The translations under genes were made by a program, and so were the position numbers. The notes beneath the pieces were generated by a model, which was given only the letters and a program-made list of their open reading frames with translations, did not search any database and had not been told where the DNA came from. 64,000 bases of DNA, from assembly GCA_963702895.1 (NCBI GenBank), contig OY969767.1:1728001-1792000 (forward strand), written 5' to 3'. The DNA comes from an uncultured Elusimicrobia bacterium (GTDB taxonomy: Bacteria > Elusimicrobiota > Elusimicrobia > 2-01-FULL-59-12). Shown here piece by piece: positions 1 to 44,632 of the stretch. Numbering within the stretch: the first letter of the stretch is position 1; the number at the start of each line of letters is the position of its first letter.

Positions 1-3000
1 GCCGGCGGTGGAGGCGTCGGAGGCGGGATTTGCTTCACCTTCCGACCCGGCCCCGCGCACGGGGCTCCGTAATTGATCGCCGCGGGGAGCTTCCAGCGTT
101 TTTCCCCCGCCGATAAGAATCGCCAGAGCAAAGCGCAGCGGGGAAAAGACTCGTGCCAACGCCAGGCGCATGTCGCTCAGGCCGCTCAGCGAAGGAATCA
201 TTCCGACTTCAATCTTCGCGGGATCCGACTTTTTCAAGATCCGGACAAAACCGATGGCGGACCCGCGAATTTCATTCGCCTTCCAATTGGCGCCAAAGAA
301 AGGTCGACGCCCGTTCTTTGCGCCGGCTCCCGCAACGCCTTCCATAATCTTCTGAAAATCGCCCAGATTCTGGCTGGCCCCGCCGACCAGCACGCCATCA
401 ACGTCCTGCTGGCGCATGATTCCTTCGATGTTCTCCGGCTTGACGCTCCCGCCATACAGGATGCGAATCGTGCCTGCGACCTGAGCACCGTACAGCGATT
501 CAATTGTTCCTCTAATAAAGTTCGCCATGTCTTGAATGTCGTCTTCGCTCGCGATTCGCCCTGTGCCGATGGCCCAAATCGGCTCATAGGCAATGATGAG
601 TTCAGCCGCATCCTCGGGAGAAATCTCGGCGAGGCCCTCTTGGAGCTGTTGACGGATCCACTCTTTTGTCTTCCCTTTGTCTCGTTTATCCAGATCCTCA
701 CCGACGGCGAGTATCTTCGTTGGGAAACCTTTCTTGCTCGCCGCGCGAAGCTGAGCGTTGACTCTCTCATCATTGTCGCTCAGATCCATCCGGGTTTCGG
801 AATGGCCGACCAGGACACCTGTGGCCCCCCTTGCCAGGACATCGTCCGCTGATACCTGACCCGTTTTCGCGCCCGGCTTCGGCGTTATCCGTTGAGCGAT
901 GAGACCGACATGTCCAGGCCAGCTCAGCAGGCGGCTTTGCAGGGCGTAGCGCACGCGGTAGAGGTCGTTAGCCTCTTCCAAGCGATTGGGCGTCCGCGCA
1001 CCTCCGAGATGCGCTGTGGCCATGATGAAGCTTTCAACAAAAACAGCCGCAAAAACAGCCACCGCCGCGTAATCGAAAGCGCCCATCCTCGCCCAATCCA
1101 TGTGTCCCAAATGAATCCCTGTCGCGACGGCCAGAACCAGCCAAAAAACAGGGAATATTCCGGCCAGCACAACCGTACGCCAGGCGGTTGGCTCTTGTCG
1201 AAGCCCGGGCACTTCAACGAAGGATTCATTCGGGGAAACCACGCGTTTGGTTGGGCTGTATCCCGCGAGTTTCGCAAAGAATTCTGTGCCGATCTCTTCC
1301 AGCCAGGACGCCGGCAATGCGACGGCGCCCCAAAACCCGCGCACCGGGCTGCGAAGTCTGTCGCCAAACCCTGTGCTCGCCGCCGGGCGGGCGGCGGTGT
1401 CGCCGGTCGCGGGGGCCATGGTGCGGACGCCGGTACCGCCACGGGTCGCGACGATAAGATCAGCGAGGCGTGAAATATCGTCGCTCCTGTCTCGTTTCTT
1501 GATAATCACTCCTAATGCTTCGAGGTAGAAGGAAAGGTGTTCCAATCCCACCCGCTGGATGAAGGCCTTTCCTTCCTCGGTGAGCAAATCTTTTCCCGCT
1601 GGGGATTCCAACCTTGCCAAGTCCCGCCAAATAGCGTTTTCTTCATCACGAACTTCCGATTCACGATCGCGCATCGCGTCACGGCGGTGGCCCAGCTCAT
1701 GTCCGAGAATAAGCAACAGTAATGATTCGGCAATGGCTTTGGCGCTTTCTGAAGCCGTCGGTGCGAACGCGGCTTTCAACGCCTCCAAGACCACCTCGTT
1801 GATCACCAGCTTGGTCGGTATTCCTTCCTTGCCAGGCTCAATATAGGCCGCGCTGACGCTGTAGCGCGGGGCCACGTGAAGCTCCACTGCGCGCACTCCC
1901 ATCGAGATCACTTCTAGCGCTTTCGTGCCGAACGGTAACGCGTCCCAATATTCTTTCAGCGCTTGATTAAGCGCCTTCCGGAAATCTTCGTGTAGATTCC
2001 AGCGCTGTACTCCTTCAGGCCGCGGTCCTTTACGCCGTGCCAATTTAAGACCGCCTGTATAAGAAGGAGGGTTGATGTTTAATCCGGTGTCCACCGACTT
2101 AGCTTTTTGCCCGCCTCCGAACGTCCGCACGCTGCCGGCGGCAACCGTCCTTCCACCCCGGCGGAACAGTGGCCGGAACCAATTGTTTAGCCACGGTAGA
2201 TTCGCCTTGACTGCCACGGATTCTTCACTAAAGTCCGGGCCGGGACCGCTCGCCAGGGCCTGCGGAGGGAGCTGGAGGTCCCGCGCGAGGTCTTCTATGT
2301 TCGCATGCTCCCCCTTCATGCGGGCTTCGTAGAGCTGGTGATAGTCCTCCGAGATCTCGTCCACGTAGGGGGTGATGACGACGTATCCCACGCCCGCCTT
2401 CTTGAACTCGCGGATCATGCCGGCGGTGTGGAAACCTCCGGCCACCAACACAACAGTATCGGTGTAACGGGGTAACGGGGTAACGGGGTAACGGCTTTGT
2501 CGTGACTCCGACACGCCGGCACTCCGATACTCCGACACGGGGCTGCGAAGCAGCGCAAGCGTGTTCTTCGCCAGCGGCTCGTCCCGCATCAGGGCGACGG
2601 CGTAAAAGTCGATGGCGGACTTCAGAACCTCTTCTATTTCAGCAAGGCGTCCCGCGTCCTGCGTTTCGCGTCCTGCGTCCTGCGTCCCGCGTCCCGCGTC
2701 CTGCTTCTTGTCGTTCAGATTCTGCACCGGATCCTTGACGCGGGACTCGGGACTCGGGACACGGGACTCAAGTCGCAACAACTGTTGCGTGATCTCCACA
2801 AAGGCCGGAAGGCGCTGCGCCACGTAGCGGACTTCTTCCAGCGTGGTCTCCTGCCGGAGAAGCTTACTCAGGAAGCTCAGGGAATGGTCGATCTCCGCGA
2901 GGTTCTGTACGAGCGCAACTTCCTTCTCGTCCTGGACGGAGGTCTTGGCGATCTCCAGCTTTCGCTTGAGAAGTTCCTCGGCAGAACGGACATCATAGGC

Positions 3001-3687
3001 TTCCTGCCGGTCCAGACGCTTCAAGCCGTAGGGGTAATGTTCTTTCTTCAGGATGGCAAGCTTCCTGCCGATCCCGTCGAGACTGTTTTTGAGCTGATGC
3101 CGGCTCTGGAGCGTCCCTTTATAGAGCTCCCGGTTAAGCTTGTAATAGTCGGGTTCATCCACGCCGAAAAGCCTGTGCCCCTCGCCGCGCAGGATGGAGA
3201 ACGCCTCGTCGCCGGACATTTCGCCTTTGCTCAGGAAGTAGTCCACGAGCCTGGTTTTGAGCTTGCCGGACGGGTAGTTGGCGAGGATGCTCGTGTCATA
3301 GTCTCCGCTTAGGCCTTCCACGGCCACCCGGCCGGAGACGATGTTTTTGTCATAGAGATAATCCAGAATTTTGACGATGCGCTTTTGGGTGGGGTAATGG
3401 AGGTGGAGATCCTGAATTAAGATGACTGTATCGGCGTATCGGCGTGTCGGCGTGCCGGCGTCACGGCTTGGGTGTGACTCCGTTACTCCGATACTCCGAT
3501 ACTCCGATACTGGAGCTGGCAGCCAGTAGTCCGTAACAGAGGCGATCTTCGGCGAAAGCGAAATCTGGCTGACGATTGAGGGAACGGCGGCGGCGTGGGA
3601 AGGACTGGGGAGCGGAATCGACGTGAGGACCAGCGCCGCCGATATCAAAGTGGATAAAACTTTTCGGGTCTGTTTAATCGGTTCCAT
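1..3687 (-). CDS. Giant multidomain exported/membrane protein, runs off the left edge (>1229 aa): signal peptide, N-terminal IQDLH..VEG..RD..GGFH domain, HELGH metallopeptidase motif, TM hairpin, circularly permuted triosephosphate isomerase domain
   Basis: ATG at 3687 preceded by GGAGG. Manual translation gives MEPIKQTRKVLSTLISAALVLTSIP.. and no stop in the segments read. The track lists no terminated ORF in this frame, and plus-strand ORFs 73-852, 892-1473 and 2785-3312 are its codon-aligned antisense shadows. Motifs GHSETR, AYEPIWAIGTG, YGGSVKPEN, LVGGAS, GANWKAN. Confidence 0.9.
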   Translation of the reverse strand, partial: MEPIKQTRKVLSTLISAALVLTSIPLPSPSHAAAVPSIVSQISLSPKIASVTDYWLPAPVSEYRSIGVTESHPSRDAGTPTRRYADTVILIQDLHLHYPTQKRIVKILDYLYDKNIVSGRVAVEGLSGDYDTSILANYPSGKLKTRLVDYFLSKGEMSGDEAFSILRGEGHRLFGVDEPDYYKLNRELYKGTLQSRHQLKNSLDGIGRKLAILKKEHYPYGLKRLDRQEAYDVRSAEELLKRKLEIAKTSVQDEKEVALVQNLAEIDHSLSFLSKLLRQETTLEEVRYVAQRLPAFVEITQQLLRLESRVPSPESRVKDPVQNLNDKKQDAGRGTQDAGRETQDAGRLAEIEEVLKSAIDFYAVALMRDEPLAKNTLALLRSPVSEYRSAGVSESRQSRYPVTPLPRYTDTVVLVAGGFHTAGMIREFKKAGVGYVVITPYVDEISEDYHQLYEARMKGEHANIEDLARDLQLPPQALASGPGPDFSEESVAVKANLPWLNNWFRPLFRRGGRTVAAGSVRTFGGGQKAKSVDTGLNINPPSYTGGLKLARRKGPRPEGVQRWNLHEDFRKALNQALKEYWDALPFGTKALEVISMGVRAVELHVAPRYSVSAAYIEPGKEGIPTKLVINEVVLEALKAAFAPTASESAKAIAESLLLLILGHELGHRRDAMRDRESEVRDEENAIWRDLARLESPAGKDLLTEEGKAFIQRVGLEHLSFYLEALGVIIKKRDRSDDISRLADLIVATRGGTGVRTMAPATGDTAARPAASTGFGDRLRSPVRGFWGAVALPASWLEEIGTEFFAKLAGYSPTKRVVSPNESFVEVPGLRQEPTAWRTVVLAGIFPVFWLVLAVATGIHLGHMDWARMGAFDYAAVAVFAAVFVESFIMATAHLGGARTPNRLEEANDLYRVRYALQSRLLSWPGHVGLIAQRITPKPGAKTGQVSADDVLARGATGVLVGHSETRMDLSDNDERVNAQLRAASKKGFPTKILAVGEDLDKRDKGKTKEWIRQQLQEGLAEISPEDAAELIIAYEPIWAIGTGRIASEDDIQDMANFIRGTIESLYGAQVAGTIRILYGGSVKPENIEGIMRQQDVDGVLVGGASQNLGDFQKIMEGVAGAGAKNGRRPFFGANWKANEIRGSAIGFVRILKKSDPAKIEVGMIPSLSGLSDMRLALARVFSPLRFALAILIGGGKTLEAPRGDQLRSPVRGAGSEGEANPASDASTAG
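2455..2540. repeat. Inverted octamer tandem-repeat element, in frame in the giant ORF
   Basis: GGTAACGG x4 facing CTCCGATA/CTCCGACA units; encodes PVSEYRSAGVSESRQSRYPVTPLPRYTD. Confidence 0.85.
2647..2770. repeat. Inverted heptamer tandem-repeat element, in frame in the giant ORF
   Basis: GCGTCC(C/T) array facing GGGAC(T/A)C array; encodes ESRVPSPESRV..QDAGRGTQDAGRETQDAGR. Confidence 0.85.
3428..3512. repeat. Inverted octamer tandem-repeat element, in frame in the giant ORF
   Basis: GTATCGGC/GTGTCGGC units facing CTCCGATA units; encodes PVSEYRSIGVTESHPSRDAGTPTRRYAD. Confidence 0.85.
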
Positions 3688-3820: not shown

Positions 3821-5208
3821 GAGTTACCATCAAAAGTGCTGGAAATAGGTTTTAAGGCAAGGAAGGATTTGCCTTAGGAAATAGAAACGGCGTACCCTTT
3901 CGTTGAAACACACAAACCTGTCCGTTCGAGCGGACAATAAACGAAAAGGAGACGCCGTTATGGAAACCATTGTAAACGAGAAAGGGACTCAGCACAAAGG
4001 CGAGAGCATGGTGGATTATCTGGCCCGTGAAGGAGCGCGCAAGATGCTGGTGGAGGCCCTGGAAGAAGAAGTGACGATGTATTTAGAGCGTCGGCGCTAT
4101 GAACGGGCGAAGAATCTGGAGAAAGGCTATCGCAACGGAACCCGGGAGCGGAAGGTGACAGTTTTGGGAGCAGGTTTAAAGCTCTCGGTGCCGCAAGTCG
4201 ACGGGGGCGAGTTTGAGTCGAGCATCTTGCGTCCGTACCAGCGGCGAACCGAGGGTGTCGAGGAGTTATTCCGGCGGCTGTACCTGGAGGGGCTCTCGAG
4301 CCGGGACTTTGAGCCGGCGATGCGAGCACTGATCGGGGATGGAGCCACCTTATCAGCCAGCACGATCCTGCGTTTATCGGCGAAGTTTCAATCGGACCTG
4401 GCCACCTTCAGCCGCCGGGACTTATCCGAAACGCGTTACGCCTATGTCTGGGCGGACGGCGTGTACTTGAAGGCCGGGCTGGAGAAAGAGAATACGGCGC
4501 TTTTAGTGTTGGTTGGCGTGAATGCCGATGGGAAGAAAGAGCTGATGGCTCTGATGGAAGGCTACCGGGAGAGCCGGGATTCCTGGAAGGAAATCTGGCG
4601 AGGGGTGGCGGAGCGTGGAATGCCCGCTCCGCTCTTGGTTATCGGCGATGGGATGGGTGGGCTCTGGGAGGCGGTGGCGGAGGTCTATCCGACCGCCAAA
4701 GATCAACGGTGCTGGAAGCACAAGATGCGCAACGTCGTGGATAAAGTGCCGAAGGCCAAGCAAGAGGAGGTGCTCAACCGTCTGCGCGTGGCGTATCAGG
4801 CGGAGCGTCGAGAAGACGCGGAGAATCACCTGGCCTTGTTAGCCGAGGACCTGGAGATTCGCTACCCGAAGGCGGCGGCTTGTATCCGGAAGGACCATGA
4901 CGCCTTGCTGCGCTACTTCGACTTTCCGAAGGAGCACTGGGTGCATTTAAAGACGAGCAATCCGATCGAGTCGGTCTTCGCGGGGGTCCGATTGCGAACT
5001 CGCGTTGTGCGGCGGTTTCAGAAATCTCGCACGGGAGTAGCGTTCGTCTACAAAATCATTGAACGCCTGGCGCAATTCTGGAAGCCGATTGAGAAGCCGG
5101 AATTGGTGATGGGATTATTCGTCGAACGAGAGAAGCTGGAGGTAGCGGCCTAAGAGACTTTCGACCAAAGGGGCGCCGATCGATTTCCATCACATTTGAC
5201 TAAAGCTC
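3821..5208 (+). mobile_element. IS256-family insertion sequence
   Basis: Imperfect 26-bp terminal IRs (GAGTTACCATCAAAAGTGCTGGAAAT vs revcomp GAGCTTTAGTCAAATGTGATGGAAAT); flanking direct repeat CTTGATT at 3814-3820 and 5209-5215. Confidence 0.9.
3960..5153 (+). CDS. IS256-family DDE transposase
   Basis: YLEGLSSRDF, YVWADGVY, IGDG, QRCWKHKMRN, KTSNPIES motifs; SD AAGGAG before ATG 3960. Confidence 0.95.
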   Translation: METIVNEKGTQHKGESMVDYLAREGARKMLVEALEEEVTMYLERRRYERAKNLEKGYRNGTRERKVTVLGAGLKLSVPQVDGGEFESSILRPYQRRTEGVEELFRRLYLEGLSSRDFEPAMRALIGDGATLSASTILRLSAKFQSDLATFSRRDLSETRYAYVWADGVYLKAGLEKENTALLVLVGVNADGKKELMALMEGYRESRDSWKEIWRGVAERGMPAPLLVIGDGMGGLWEAVAEVYPTAKDQRCWKHKMRNVVDKVPKAKQEEVLNRLRVAYQAERREDAENHLALLAEDLEIRYPKAAACIRKDHDALLRYFDFPKEHWVHLKTSNPIESVFAGVRLRTRVVRRFQKSRTGVAFVYKIIERLAQFWKPIEKPELVMGLFVEREKLEVAA

Positions 5209-41700: not shown

Positions 41701-41841
41701 CCCATTGGAAACGGAGACTTTTCCCACAACAGGGAAAGGCCGCGGTGCCTCCGCTAAGGCCGCTATGGACGCAAGCGGTAAGGAGAGGACCCCGGCAAGA
41801 ACAATGCGAAAAAATTTACTTAATAATGATGAGCTTGCCAT
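38773..41841 (-). CDS. Large exported tetratricopeptide-repeat protein (~1020 aa)
   Basis: Signal peptide and many BamD/CpoB-like TPRs ending in YP. Confidence 0.9.
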   Translation of the reverse strand: MASSSLLSKFFRIVLAGVLSLPLASIAALAEAPRPFPVVGKVSVSNGHWNETAALIEKLSDKATEEAIRFQLISAQAEQAFSMGLLDDSRRAFQKLLKAKKPSPSLFIQQISGLRMAEILLLQGKADDALKALAPYQAKEINPYVSQEALFLQARCYLVKRDWASLQKAMLQLVRTNPAYSNDLAVNLLRGVAALERDRPDEALVYVKRYPDEPSALYYQAVAYIQKKEISNALPLYQQILQKSPNSEWVDRMRMVLGEAFYAAHDLPLAHEFFKPVTRPAADAVLRPLALHRRGCLYFEEKKFNEADEIFTGLLKEYPKHPLRMQWTYIYASIPIFKKDWKKAIQEQKMALEFSRGLAPRIHGADEYQLRLSAEFRILWAHLLLNNFNGAKILADKFITRYPKEPMTAYAYLAKGLSLYRMGEYDRALEVYQDLLNKFPESSATGKAVYLMTLCLHSARDPFRMAGILNEVHERMSKAIGSNVAVDEWTQNTLYWIADAYFQLNDLSSAEKIYKEFILKAPQSPLVPYALENLAATLSAQGPKRDAEAIIALNQAQMRALDLGNKSLAEQIEVELAKVFYNQRDYAKAASTWNHLVTVSTQPAVRAEALYREGDALTRQDFYQEAIKRWKTLVQTYRTDPLVSEALMRIGITQAGLGQWSEAASTFATIKKSYAGSEVGKEGAFQLIQCAFNQGDFKTAANELLAFAKQYPDDARIAKAADNLLSAFHQKKVVIPASQQAQLLRLAPGSAGGAALLWERGASLFNESKYEPAQKLFEKIMLSYPNDEYAPLAYFYNADCFFWMQKWDEAANAYQNFYLSFPKHERVPNAMFQKAVCLFRKGAFDLAVADFKVFLSKYPTHPLAKEAWLNIALAHKKAFQLDQSVQAYKYVIEQYPNDPKVNAVWLQMGALLEVQGKHAEAQRAYTRVAKSSPEYPESLYRAAMLLDQRKSAAQSRALLEELRALPDKKSEFRLAALIKLSEIYESEGAPPAKLRALYQDLAASTPDPEVAKQARLRIQELK

Positions 41842-44632
41842 TCTTCTTACTTTCTGGCGATTCAATCACGTAGAAGTATACTCCGCTTGCAATGCTCTCG
41901 CCAGAAGTATTTTTGACATCCCAATCGTAGGTATCGGCGCTGACCCTGGTTTCAAACACCAGGCGCCCACTCGTACTATAAATATGGATGGATGCTTCTG
42001 AGCCCAAATTGGCGAAGGTGATGGTCCCCCGGCCCTGGCTCGCTTTATAAGGAACCGGGTAAGCCTTAGCGTTCGTGACGTCATAGCTGACCGACGTCAC
42101 CAGGATAGACCCGCTGATGCCTGAGGCGGTGGCGGTCACCGTTTGGCTGGTCCCGATCTCGCCCGAACGAAACACACCCGCAGCACTAATGCTCCCGCCG
42201 CTTGTGACCGTCCAAACCACGCCTGAGAGGGGCGGCATGGATTGTCCGAATTGATCCATGCCATTGGCCACAAACTGCTGGTCCTCTGAAGCCTTGATGG
42301 TAACGCTGCTCGGACAAGATGTCGAACCGGCCGGGCAGACTTGGATCGCGGTCAAAAATTGAGCCAAATCCCTTGTAGCCGTGACACCTGAGCCGGAAAT
42401 ACTCGCGGGGTCTGTCACGGTACAACGGAAGGAATAGCTCCCGGCTCTTGTGAACGTAACGATGGAATTCTTGGCAGCATTCGTGCCGTTCGCGCTGTAG
42501 CTCACGGCGGCCGGTCCAGACTCGAGACTCCAGGTGTAGATTAAACTCGGTTCCGGATAGCCCGGGTCCGTCGCTGTACAACTTAAATTGCCCGTCACAT
42601 GGTCCGGATTCAAAGTCAATTCGGCGGAGGTAACCACGGGACCGGAGTTGCTGACGGTGACCGGCACGATCACGCTCGTATAACCCGAACGCGAAGCCGT
42701 CAAGGTAAAGCTGCCGGCAACCGTCGCAGTTAAAATGGTGGAAGCGCCAGAAGTCGTGCTGATCTGCCCGGCGCCGCCGCTATAGAGCCAGGTGACTGTC
42801 GCGCCAGGAATCACGGCGCCAGATTCATCGGTCACCGTCGCCGTGAAGGTGAGAGGGGTGCCAGTCACAGCACTGCCGGGATTGGGCGCGACCGTAATCG
42901 CGCTCATGTTGGGCGGTGTCGTCACGAACCCAATGATCAGAAACGCACTGTCGGGCCACGTGGGCCGAGAGATGTTGCGGGTTCTCACACGGGCATAATA
43001 GGTCGTCGTCGGACTCACCGTGAAGGTCAGGGAAAAGGTTGGCTTGGCAACCGTAGCGGTCTGGCAACCGGTGGTAAAGGCAGCATCCAGACAAAGGTTC
43101 ACTTCATAAGTCGACCCGTTGGGGTTGGCTGAGCCGTCCACCCAATTGACCTGGAGGCTGGTGGCCAGCACGTTCGAAAAGCTCCCAGACGTTGGTGCAT
43201 ATGGCGTAGTCGTAAATGAACTCGGCGTAAATGGGAGTGGCGATGAAGGGCACCCAGCTTCTCTTAGAATGATGGTCGGCGTGTATAACGTGTTAGGAGT
43301 TAAACCTGTGACGGTATGGTCCTGGTTGATATTCGAGCTATCCCCAGTCAGAACGGTACTGCCGTTCAGACGAAGATCCCAGCTTGCCAGACCCGTCACA
43401 TCCACCCCCGAAATTCGGAGTGTTGCGCTCGTATAGAAGACGTTGAGCACAGTGAAGGAGCCGCCCCAGGCTAGCGTGGTGATGGGAGGACCACTGATGT
43501 TCGCACTGTCGGGCCAATTGCTAGCGCCGCGGTTCTCCGCTTGGACTCGAGGTGTATACGACGTGTTGGGACTGAGCCCCGTTATGTAAACGGTATTCGT
43601 GTCATTGAATCGACCCGTGCCACCGATAGTTTTCGTTGCACAAGCCGCTCCAAGGCAGCCCGTATAAGGAGATGAACTCGGGTTCCCTAGCACTCCGCTA
43701 AATGCACTTGCGGCATTCTGGAATGTGATCGTTGCCGCGCAGTGAGAGAAGTTGGATCCTACACTCACGTTCGCAGGATCAAGCGGAGCGGTCCACAAAG
43801 GAAAGACGGTTTGCCCAGCTGCCGGGGCCAACGTAGCATAGGGGAAGTTGACCTGTCCTTTATACCGGTAGTATGTATTTGGGCGGAACCCATTCCCGTC
43901 TGGGTTGTACTGCACGCTCGTCAAGAATGGGTAGACCTGCGGTGGGGCTCCTGAAACACCGCCCTGATTGATCCCGATCACGGTGAATCCATTATCAACA
44001 TCCGTCACGGTTATGGAAGCGCGTGAAATCGTACTCGCGTCGGTACTGCCGATACTGGTGCGAACGCGAATACCTCCGGTCGTGACGTCGGCGACACCGA
44101 TGGCTCCTTGCACAGGCACAGCAAAGGGATTGCTTGGATAGGCGAGTGTGGTGGTGGTGTTAGATTTGATCTTGACCCATCGCGAGCACTGCAAAGTATT
44201 GACGCCAGCGCCATTTGGACAAGCCTGTGCATACGCATAATAGGCTGAAGCACCTTTTGTAGGAGTGACAAAACCACCTGTGACAGTGCTCGCTGGGTCA
44301 GACGAGAAATTTTGGACTGATGGGCCAATAACAGTTGTGCCTGCCGCTAAGTCGGAAACGATGCTGCCATTTGCAGCGGAAGCCCCTCGATCGGTTGTCG
44401 TCAGTGCAAAATAGTAGTTACTGAATTGCTCGTTCCCATCAGAAGAACCAGAATTCAACGCCTGCATATTGTTGACCTGCGTGATGGTAATGCCCCACCC
44501 GGAGCTTGTAATCGCATTGAACGAAGGATCGACACACGGTATCCCTGTGGTGCCGCATACTGTCAAAGCATGCAATGGGCTCACGAAACCGATCAGAACT
44601 GCCGGCAACAGAAAAAGCATCGTGCGTTTCAT
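41816..44632 (-). CDS. Exported FN3/Ig/PKD-repeat protein with a T9SS type A-like C-terminal domain
   Basis: TGLSPNTSY and TGLTPNTLY FN3 motifs; C-terminus AYPVPYK..IHIYSTSGRLV..WDVKNTSGESIASGVYFY..KLIIIK. Confidence 0.85.
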   Translation of the reverse strand: MKRTMLFLLPAVLIGFVSPLHALTVCGTTGIPCVDPSFNAITSSGWGITITQVNNMQALNSGSSDGNEQFSNYYFALTTTDRGASAANGSIVSDLAAGTTVIGPSVQNFSSDPASTVTGGFVTPTKGASAYYAYAQACPNGAGVNTLQCSRWVKIKSNTTTTLAYPSNPFAVPVQGAIGVADVTTGGIRVRTSIGSTDASTISRASITVTDVDNGFTVIGINQGGVSGAPPQVYPFLTSVQYNPDGNGFRPNTYYRYKGQVNFPYATLAPAAGQTVFPLWTAPLDPANVSVGSNFSHCAATITFQNAASAFSGVLGNPSSSPYTGCLGAACATKTIGGTGRFNDTNTVYITGLSPNTSYTPRVQAENRGASNWPDSANISGPPITTLAWGGSFTVLNVFYTSATLRISGVDVTGLASWDLRLNGSTVLTGDSSNINQDHTVTGLTPNTLYTPTIILREAGCPSSPLPFTPSSFTTTPYAPTSGSFSNVLATSLQVNWVDGSANPNGSTYEVNLCLDAAFTTGCQTATVAKPTFSLTFTVSPTTTYYARVRTRNISRPTWPDSAFLIIGFVTTPPNMSAITVAPNPGSAVTGTPLTFTATVTDESGAVIPGATVTWLYSGGAGQISTTSGASTILTATVAGSFTLTASRSGYTSVIVPVTVSNSGPVVTSAELTLNPDHVTGNLSCTATDPGYPEPSLIYTWSLESGPAAVSYSANGTNAAKNSIVTFTRAGSYSFRCTVTDPASISGSGVTATRDLAQFLTAIQVCPAGSTSCPSSVTIKASEDQQFVANGMDQFGQSMPPLSGVVWTVTSGGSISAAGVFRSGEIGTSQTVTATASGISGSILVTSVSYDVTNAKAYPVPYKASQGRGTITFANLGSEASIHIYSTSGRLVFETRVSADTYDWDVKNTSGESIASGVYFYVIESPESKKNGKLIIIK

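What the first reader, a model, noticed from the sequence alone, without database searches (positions are those of the whole stretch)
1..3687. Giant modular exported protein missing from the ORF track
Seen: an ORF of >1229 codons leaving the window. Order: signal peptide, ~400-aa domain (IQDLH..VAVEG..FY..A..RD..GGFH..VITP), HELGH metallopeptidase region, linker, TM hairpin, TPI domain, linker. Knowledge: giant proteins carrying embedded enzyme domains are reported from Omnitrophota-like putative predators/symbionts. Inference: a polyprotein carrier that exports, anchors or releases metabolic cargo domains.
Basis: partly seen in the sequence, partly recalled or inferred. Interest (0 to 1): 0.8.

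Follow-up and report, generated by a model that had tools for sequence, protein, structure and literature searches.

The report
Modular enzyme carrier with rearranged isomerase
This is one real 1,947-residue bacterial gene that strings a circularly rearranged sugar-phosphate isomerase and a kinase-like domain onto a reusable frame (export-type leader, hydrolase-like head, membrane hairpins, alanine tail), and the protein is likely exported so that these enzymes would act in the cytoplasm of a neighbouring host or prey cell.

Summary
The ORF is real. It continues 2,156 nt left of the window to 1,947 aa, adding a GHMP-kinase domain, two more hydrophobic segments and an ...FNAAA tail. It is missing from the ORF track only because it runs off the window. 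The organism is likely Elusimicrobiota.

New detail from my tests:
- The TPI module is circularly permuted: strands 3-8 come first, strands 1-2 last. Catalytic Lys, His and Glu are kept in 28 of 28 such domains found.
- The GGFH head has a TIKI/EreA/ChaN-type fold with an RRSP-like residue set (D93, H95, E124, R368, H420). It has 7 copies in this genome.
- Long family members share a R-x-hydrophobic-x-x-[A/S]-A tail.
- This protein has no cysteine.
- Hairpin charge bias points the cargo towards a cytoplasm.

Multi-enzyme giant proteins carrying TPI are already described in preprints. The permutation, head fold and tail were not found in the papers searched, but this scan noted all three before on other DNA.

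Best reading, inferred (about 0.4): a swappable-cargo chassis delivering enzymes into another cell. Cleavage, activity and location are untested.

The parts
1..3687 (-). Residues 1-1229 of a 1,947-aa ORF. The rest lies left of the window (G000:C1:1725844-1728000): GHMP-kinase module about 1250-1735, hydrophobic segments 1789-1807 and 1849-1867, tail ...DLFNAAA
3589..3687 (-). Sec-type leader, residues 1-33 (basic n-region, hydrophobic 10-25, SHA-A cleavage-like site); judged by eye, no signal-peptide predictor available
2293..3438 (-). TIKI/EreA/ChaN-fold head, residues 84-465, with invariant D93, H95, Q101, E124, R368, G417-G418-F419-H420; loops carry in-frame 7-8-nt tandem repeats
1453..1965 (-). 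HExxH module, residues about 575-745 (HELGH 663-667, window 1687-1701); zincin-like by motif only
1336..1365 (-). Linker motif GDRLRSPVRG (775-784), first copy
1009..1173 (-). Hydrophobic hairpin, residues 839-893, with Arg on both outer flanks
148..915 (-). Circularly permuted triosephosphate isomerase, residues 925-1180: strands 3-8 (His962, Glu1035) then strand 1 (NWK, Lys1136, window 280-288) and strand 2
148..309 (-). Displaced beta1-alpha1-beta2-alpha2 quarter of the barrel, residues 1127-1180
52..81 (-). Linker motif GDQLRSPVRG (1203-1212), second copy; the two copies bracket the hairpin plus TPI cassette and differ at synonymous sites

Best explanation
The gene encodes one member of a family of long proteins with a constant frame (leader, TIKI-fold head, membrane hairpins, alanine tail) and swappable enzyme cargo, and it is likely exported unfolded and delivered to a neighbouring host or prey cell, where the permuted isomerase and the kinase-like domain would face that cell's cytoplasm and would act on its sugar phosphates. 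Shown: the ORF, the domain order, the permutation, the conserved residues, the tail, the cysteine loss and the cargo swapping. Predicted: the head fold and closure of the barrel. Inferred: Sec export, hydrolase or processing activity of the head, reading of the tail by an ATP-driven unfoldase or secretion receptor, and delivery into another cell.
For: Export signs. The leader is also present on two stand-alone head proteins. The protein has 0 Cys in 1,947 aa. Seventeen A-tailed ORFs of at least 1,400 aa hold 0.15% Cys against 0.92% in other genes over 300 aa. The Cys kept in 29 of 29 canonical TPIs is Ala here.

Cytoplasm signs. In 35 hairpins from 21 proteins, K/R per residue is 0.16 before and 0.18 after the hairpin but 0.06-0.07 in the loop, with D/E level. 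Cargo types in this genome's large proteins need ATP, SAM or DNA: methyltransferases, PP2C, sigma-70 region 4, HTH, receiver, FBPase, and GHMP here.

Not housekeeping. An intact canonical tpiA lies elsewhere, next to an rpiB-like gene. In a quick tree the permuted module groups with other permuted modules (SH-aLRT 91), not with tpiA.

Cargo is shuffled like an effector repertoire. A same-genus homolog carries HAD + GHMP + PGM-like domains instead.

Head. D93/H95/E124/R368/H420 are invariant in 14 of 14 unselected homologs. Their order and first spacings match RRSP E3900/H3902/E3930/R4001/H4030 (PMC6254334 passages).

Context. The genome has 11 T2SSE/pilus ATPases over the cut-off. AAA+-assisted import of proteins into target cytoplasm has precedent (PMC9040868 abstract).
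Against: No delivery machine or target was identified, and the gene stands alone between a transposase and an SRAP gene. Hydrophobic hairpins would be expected to stop in the producer's own inner membrane (general knowledge). Low Cys is also seen in other long exported or membrane proteins of this genome, several at 0-0.3%, so it marks export, not delivery. The hairpin count used a crude hydropathy window, had no control of known orientation, and includes kin and copied cassettes. TM number is even in 22 and odd in 23 of 45 proteins. Some cargo acts outside the cytoplasm: SLT, LysM, M23. No family-wide cleavage motif was found in the Elusimicrobiota proteins. The tail has no Leu at -3 in most members and tolerates S, Q, N or K at -2, unlike strong ClpXP degrons. 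Structural Z-scores for the head are only 7.5-8.4.
Confidence: 0.4

Rival explanations
1. The protein stays in the producer's inner membrane with head, TPI and GHMP on the periplasmic or outer side and only the basic tail inside. The enzymes pre-process sugar phosphates leaking from prey before uptake, as West-Roberts et al. suggested for Omnitrophota giants.
For: A leader followed by paired hydrophobic segments gives this topology by default. The cysteine loss fits. The last TM is followed by RALIKRRAAR. TPI needs no cofactor (general knowledge). The preprint passages propose this.
Against: K/R lie on both outer flanks of 29 internal hairpins (0.16 against 0.06-0.08). GHMP kinases, methyltransferases, sigma and HTH cargo have no obvious substrate outside. 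The preprint itself doubts its localisations.
Confidence: 0.3
2. The protein is a membrane-tethered enzyme cluster facing the producer's own cytoplasm. The leader acts as an anchor, and the Ala tail is a ClpXP/FtsH turnover tag.
For: Hairpin charge bias. Permuted TPIs are usually fused to PGK, GAPDH, enolase, FBPase, PGI or PGM. The genome's own tmRNA tag ends in LAA and clpX is present.
Against: It does not explain the six-fold cysteine loss, including the TPI Cys. It is redundant with tpiA. TPI and this GHMP are not consecutive pathway steps. No clear TM lies between the leader and residue 835 to bring the chain back in.
Confidence: 0.2
3. The cargo domains are non-catalytic binding modules or decaying passengers of a recombining gene family.
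For: The GHMP module has GGQE or GGQG where stand-alone HddA-like kinases have xQD. The HExxH module has no homolog in 150 other class genomes searched. The first of two tandem permuted TPIs in P0003 is degenerate.
Against: K, H and E are kept in 28 of 28 permuted TPIs at 44% identity or less to the query, with fixed spacing in 26 of 28. Head residues are invariant. The frame is intact over 5.8 kb.
Confidence: 0.1

Closest known systems
Multi-enzyme very long SP+TM proteins of Omnitrophota (Archaeovorins, West-Roberts et al., bioRxiv 10.1101/2023.11.21.568195; class 1 of Nielsen & Lui, bioRxiv 10.64898/2026.06.07.730766)
   Same: Leader plus TM segments plus unrelated enzyme domains, including TPI and other glycolytic enzymes; same topology puzzle; processing proposed.
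   Different: 1,947 aa against 10,000-147,000; likely Elusimicrobiota; no SecA-DEAD, C39 or S8 hit; head is TIKI-fold. The words permut, Tiki and TraB occur 0 times in both main texts.
Canonical triosephosphate isomerase TpiA (Pfam PF00121; PDB 1b9b)
   Same: All barrel elements and the NWK, GHSE, AYEPIWAIGTG, YGGS and GGAS motifs.
   Different: Chain starts at strand 3 and ends with strands 1-2; embedded in a membrane protein; the conserved Cys is replaced; below NCBIfam equivalog cut-offs.
TIKI superfamily hydrolases: Bcr135/136 (2rad, 2qgm, 3b55), EreC (6xcq), ChaN (2g5g), HopBA1 (5t09), RRSP
   Same: Top structural matches in both searches; acid-x-His, Glu, Arg, His pattern.
   Different: Asp for the first Glu; large helical insert; no Pfam hit over the cut-off (PF04187 only E 0.026-0.04 in 3 of 22 homologs); substrate unknown.
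HddA-like GHMP sugar kinases (PF00288)
   Same: PF00288 over its cut-off (29.8 against 22.3 bits); GxGxS and LGAGG motifs; weak hits to about 340-aa HddA-like proteins.
   Different: About 480 aa with inserts; xQD replaced by GQE or GQG; strong homologs found only in long ORFs (3 of 40 relatives).
ssrA-like C-terminal degrons read by ClpXP
   Same: Terminal Ala-Ala and a hydrophobic residue at -5.
   Different: Genome-encoded on membrane proteins; small residue at -3; variable at -2; basic at -7.

Membership tests
Triosephosphate isomerase (PF00121) | Catalytic Lys, His, Glu and phosphate-binding loops | tested here: met
   NWK 1134-1136, GHSE 961-964, AYEP 1033-1036, YGGS, GGAS; the roles of these residues are recalled
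Triosephosphate isomerase (PF00121) | Complete eight-stranded barrel | tested here: met
   Split-chain model: score 0.92, best control 0.00 (mark reached by 116 of 157 solved and 2 of 215 mismatched pairs), runs agree in at least 93% of contacts, partner pLDDT at least 74; strand 1 pairs with strand 8 and strand 2 with strand 3. The pass may come from likeness to solved TIMs.
Triosephosphate isomerase (PF00121) | Canonical chain order, strand 1 to strand 8 | tested here: not met
   Profile 3-216 matches 1b9b 59-251 and profile 224-278 matches 1b9b 3-57 (E 7e-4)
Triosephosphate isomerase (PF00121) | Isomerase activity and dimer formation | not testable with these tools
TIKI/EreA/ChaN superfamily | Parallel beta-sheet core flanked by helices | tested here: met
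   Model pLDDT 90, pTM 0.84. Five of the top six VIA hits are members (Z 7.5-8.4, rmsd 3.4-6.3, 141-182 aligned). Top five Foldseek hits are Bcr135/EreC, E 0.006-0.025. Scores are moderate.
TIKI/EreA/ChaN superfamily | 2His/2acid set plus Arg | tested here: met
   D93, H95, E124, R368, H420 invariant in 14 of 14; correspondence to RRSP is by order and spacing, not by superposition
ChaN family (PF04187) or TraB family | Profile score over the curated cut-off | tested here: not met
   No hit for the query; E 0.026-0.04 in 3 of 22 homologs
TIKI/EreA/ChaN superfamily | Peptidase or esterase activity | not testable with these tools
   No assay
GHMP kinases | PF00288 over cut-off, with ATP-binding loop | tested here: met
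   29.8 bits against 22.3; GGMGTSG 1415-1421
HddA heptose-phosphate kinase | NCBIfam HddA model and conserved QD acid | tested here: not met
   No NF049969 hit for the module; GGQE here
Zincin metallopeptidases | HExxH plus third ligand in a recognised fold | tested here: inconclusive
   HELGH with EE about 17 residues later; no Pfam or NCBIfam hit; Atlas lead PF14891 on 32% of a cluster at score 0.89
Archaeovorin / Omnitrophota giant proteins | Length of 10,000-30,000 aa or more with SecA-DEAD and C39 or S8 domains | tested here: not met
   1,947 aa; none of these Pfam hits
Archaeovorin / Omnitrophota giant proteins | Leader plus TM plus several unrelated enzyme domains | tested here: met
ssrA-like ClpXP degron | Terminal Ala-Ala with Leu at -3 | tested here: inconclusive
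   Query ends FNAAA; family AA in 28 of 45, Leu at -3 not among the six commonest residues; screen consensus

The most novel reading that the evidence does not exclude
Uncultured Elusimicrobiota and Omnitrophota use an undescribed, general protein-delivery chassis: leader + TIKI-fold processing head + membrane hairpins + C-terminal alanine handle. It carries interchangeable central-metabolism enzymes into another cell's cytoplasm to redirect its carbon. One cargo is a natural circular permutant of triosephosphate isomerase that was not found in the papers searched.
Probability: 0.3. Interest if true: 0.92.

Novelty: new variant of a known kind. Interest (0 to 1): 0.63.

Why it matters
Giant multi-enzyme proteins of these phyla are an open puzzle, largely because they are too big to handle. 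This member is 1,947 aa and has every frame element, so it can be cloned whole and tested for cleavage, topology and tail function. The permuted TPI is a natural rearrangement of the textbook barrel with its active site kept across at least 28 domains, and a simple complementation test would show whether it works. If delivery holds, it would be a way of exploiting other cells with metabolic enzymes instead of toxins.

Tried and rejected
- Single-sequence AlphaFold of the TPI module failed (pLDDT 44) and was not used.
- The permuted profile (3-4 sequences) did not outrank canonical TPIs. A junction DNA pattern worked instead, but only 11 of 84 loci were true; 39 were canonical TPIs with chance DNA after the motif and 34 had no TPI core.
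- Among the 150 listed best matches in 401 phylum genomes only the query spans the junction; 246 matches were not listed.
- P0047 (canonical tandem TPI) was dropped from the permuted count, and P0151 is not permuted.
- The careful tree did not finish. The quick tree does not show a single origin (support 79).
- A PDB sequence search with the head alignment found nothing real. The Atlas gave unnamed clusters below 0.9 for the head.
- HExxH module: not found with this query in 150 class genomes.
- The repeated GDxLRSPVRG motif occurs only in this protein, so it is not a family cleavage motif.
- A TM at 1175-1193 was considered and rejected, since 1170-1182 packs on the barrel.
- No RNA holder listed. 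Contigs leave most of the gene uncovered, which proves nothing.
- The 13,707-aa ORF (ends in PA) was left out of the A-tailed set.
- The Aridivitia paper was irrelevant.
- Not-in-print searches: 4 papers hold all three terms, listing only; 0 occurrences of 'natural circular permut' in the 15 listed of 223. bioRxiv supplements were not seen and could mention these features.
Full report
Observation. The minus-strand frame from ATG 3687 is open to base 1 and continues 2,156 nt beyond the window to 1,947 aa in a single-contig 2.72-Mb genome. The same protein is in the public collection as a called gene (P0001), so its absence from the ORF track is a window-edge effect. A GGAGG precedes the ATG. 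One other run holds six short contigs identical to the gene, one across the window edge; it may be the same site. The gene stands alone, between a Mutator/IS256-family transposase at 3903-5153 and an SRAP gene. The best named homolog of the head is from an Elusimicrobia genome at 54%, so the organism is likely Elusimicrobiota.

Anatomy. Leader 1-33; head 84-465; HExxH module about 575-745; hydrophobic pair 839-893; TPI 925-1180; GHMP module about 1250-1735; hydrophobic segments 1789-1807 and 1849-1867; tail ...DLFNAAA.

The TPI is circularly permuted. Pfam TIM positions 54-243 match residues 926-1116, and positions 2-51 match weakly at 1130-1177, after them (E 0.16). An HMM of the first 58 positions of 29 canonical TPIs finds residues 1127-1154 as its best non-self hit among 11,214 ORFs of the genome (E 4.6 genome-wide, 4e-4 within the protein). 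A 12-sequence permuted profile matches Thermotoga TIM 1b9b in swapped order: profile 3-216 to chain 59-251 and profile 224-278 to chain 3-57 (E 7e-4). Folding 921-1120 with 1121-1189 as two chains scored 0.92 against a best control of 0.00 (mark reached by 116 of 157 solved and 2 of 215 mismatched pairs; contacts agree in at least 93%; partner pLDDT at least 74). Strand 1 sits beside strand 8 and strand 2 beside strand 3. This pass may reflect likeness to solved TIMs.

The permutation defines a family. It was seen in 4 of 22 long TPI-bearing proteins, 11 of 84 pattern loci and 16 of the best 150 representatives. The merged set has 28 domains with no pair above 85% identity. All 28 keep Lys, His and Glu, and 26 keep the same 34-35-residue distance from strand 8 to the NWK motif. 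Of the eight genome loci, six are labelled Omnitrophota, one Elusimicrobiota and one Planctomycetia. Most sit in leader-bearing proteins with PGK, GAPDH, enolase, FBPase, PGI or PGM. In P0051 the module starts at residue 55, right after the leader, so no first quarter can lie upstream. P0002 has two canonical TPIs in tandem and P0003 two permuted ones, which suggests duplication and trimming as the route (inference). The genome has its own canonical tpiA. In a quick tree the query groups with 13 other permuted modules (SH-aLRT 91), away from tpiA; a single origin is neither shown nor excluded.

The head is a TIKI-fold domain. It occurs 7 times in this genome: five times at the start of 1,500-12,900-aa proteins and twice alone at about 340-350 aa. 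It is found in 18 of 31 genomes searched, often with many matches each, mostly in long frames. AlphaFold with 44 sequences gave pLDDT 90. Foldseek's top five hits are Bcr135 and EreC (E 0.006-0.025). Five of VIA's top six are Bcr136/135, EreC, ChaN and HopBA1 (Z 7.5-8.4, rmsd 3.4-6.3, 141-182 aligned). These scores are moderate, but the sequence agrees: D93, H95, E124, R368 and H420 are invariant in 14 of 14 unselected homologs and in the 46-sequence set, where the DxH and GGFH motifs were selected for. RRSP uses E3900, H3902, E3930 and H4030, with R4001 (PMC6254334, passages); EreC uses E47, H50, E78, R261 and H289 (PMC7979712, passages). The head is therefore likely an active hydrolase. Its substrate is unknown.

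Other cargo. The GHMP module passes the PF00288 cut-off and is distantly like HddA sugar kinases, but lacks their QD. Strong homologs were found in 3 of 40 relatives, all in long frames. One of them has the same head but HAD + GHMP + PGM-like cargo. The HExxH module has no family hit and no homolog in 150 class genomes. Other head-bearing proteins carry FBPase, PGI, aldolase, PGM, PP2C, kinases, methyltransferases, DnaJ, SLT or M23. The cargo is thus modular.

Frame features. Tail: 15 of 32 ORFs of at least 1,400 aa end in [AS]A, against 57 of 1,891 shorter ones, nine of which are transposase copies (Fisher p 3e-14, paralogs not independent). All five long head proteins end in Ala. So do 16 of 19 search homologs and 13 of 16 complete frames from 20 hand-picked regions of relatives, two of which duplicate search hits. 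In 45 Ala-ending members position -5 is hydrophobic in 43 and -2 is Ala in 28. This resembles but does not equal the ClpXP consensus (bioRxiv 10.1101/2024.01.29.576913, passages). One clpX and one S41 protease gene are present. Cysteine: 0 of 1,947 here; 0.15% in 17 A-tailed long ORFs against 0.92% in other genes and 0.63% in other long ORFs, though several unrelated exported proteins are equally poor. Hairpins: K/R lie on both outer flanks and not in the loop, in 30 against 4 and 25 against 5 of 35 hairpins, by a crude method without a control.

Mechanism. The leader and cysteine loss point to passage through an oxidising compartment. The hairpin charges and the cargo chemistry point to a cytoplasm. 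Delivery into another cell reconciles both and explains the redundancy with housekeeping enzymes and the cargo shuffling. I put it at 0.4, because no machine or target is identified and hairpins should anchor in the producer's own membrane. Outward-facing enzymes on the producer (0.3), an own-cytoplasm cluster (0.2) and non-catalytic cargo (0.1) remain open.

Comparison with the literature. Giant leader + TM proteins with TPI and other glycolytic domains are described for Omnitrophota, and very large genes are noted in Elusimicrobiota (West-Roberts et al., passages; Nielsen and Lui, abstract, sections 8-9 and term search; PMC11573180, passages). Interspecies transfer of giant proteins has precedent (bioRxiv 10.64898/2026.03.19.712371, abstract), as does FtsH-dependent import (PMC9040868, abstract). 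The permutation and the TIKI head were not found in those two main texts, the permutation not in the listings, and the tail not in the listing; bioRxiv supplements were not seen. Earlier notes of this scan had seen the permuted TPI, the head and the tail on other DNA. I consulted them after reaching each result myself, and they are not independent support. The cysteine and hairpin-charge measurements did not appear in the notes returned.

Verdict. A real, well-supported variant of a known but unexplained class, small enough to test. Interest 0.63.

Noticed in passing
window 3903-5153 (+): Mutator/IS256-family transposase (PF00872) just upstream of the gene; nine related copies in the genome, all ending in ...LEVAA.
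   Followed up: partly
window 2456-2538, 2647-2769, 3431-3511: In-frame 7-8-nt tandem repeats inserted in loops of the head domain. Similar repeat-coded peptides occur in many other genes of this genome.
   Followed up: partly
L008:7098-8153 (G000:C1:272097-273152) and G000:C1:2368884-2369909: Two stand-alone, leader-bearing head proteins without the Ala tail. The first lies two genes after a pair of PilT-like ATPases. They could act in trans on giants that lack a head.
   Followed up: partly
G000:C1:2189054-2232109: About ten tandem 950-1,650-aa proteins, most of them Cys-rich, nearly all ending in the same ...VASGIYVYHLKAEGGAKKTGKVVVIK domain. A window protein with a like end (41816-44632) hits the T9SS-type CHU_C model. 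This looks like a second export class.
   Followed up: partly
G000:C1 93151, 222873, 298451, 450829, 1099279, 1401902-1427876: A second group of long proteins without the TIKI head, with a shared LLVPxLLADP-type leader and the same Ala tail.
   Followed up: partly
P0003 residues 526-1122; P0002 residues 388-970: Tandem permuted TPIs (first copy degenerate) and tandem canonical TPIs: possible stages of permutation by duplication.
   Followed up: partly
P0078 (269 aa) and P0044 / L101:1973-2935: Short proteins consisting of little more than a permuted TPI, one with a leader-like start. They may be stand-alone forms or fragments.
   Followed up: no
P0038, L078, L084: Omnitrophota proteins show repeated RSE-x-R linkers beside cargo domains; no such motif was found in the query.
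   Followed up: partly
L174:256-8164: A head-bearing frame without the tail is followed by an overlapping frame that ends in the tail; possibly a split or frameshifted gene.
   Followed up: no
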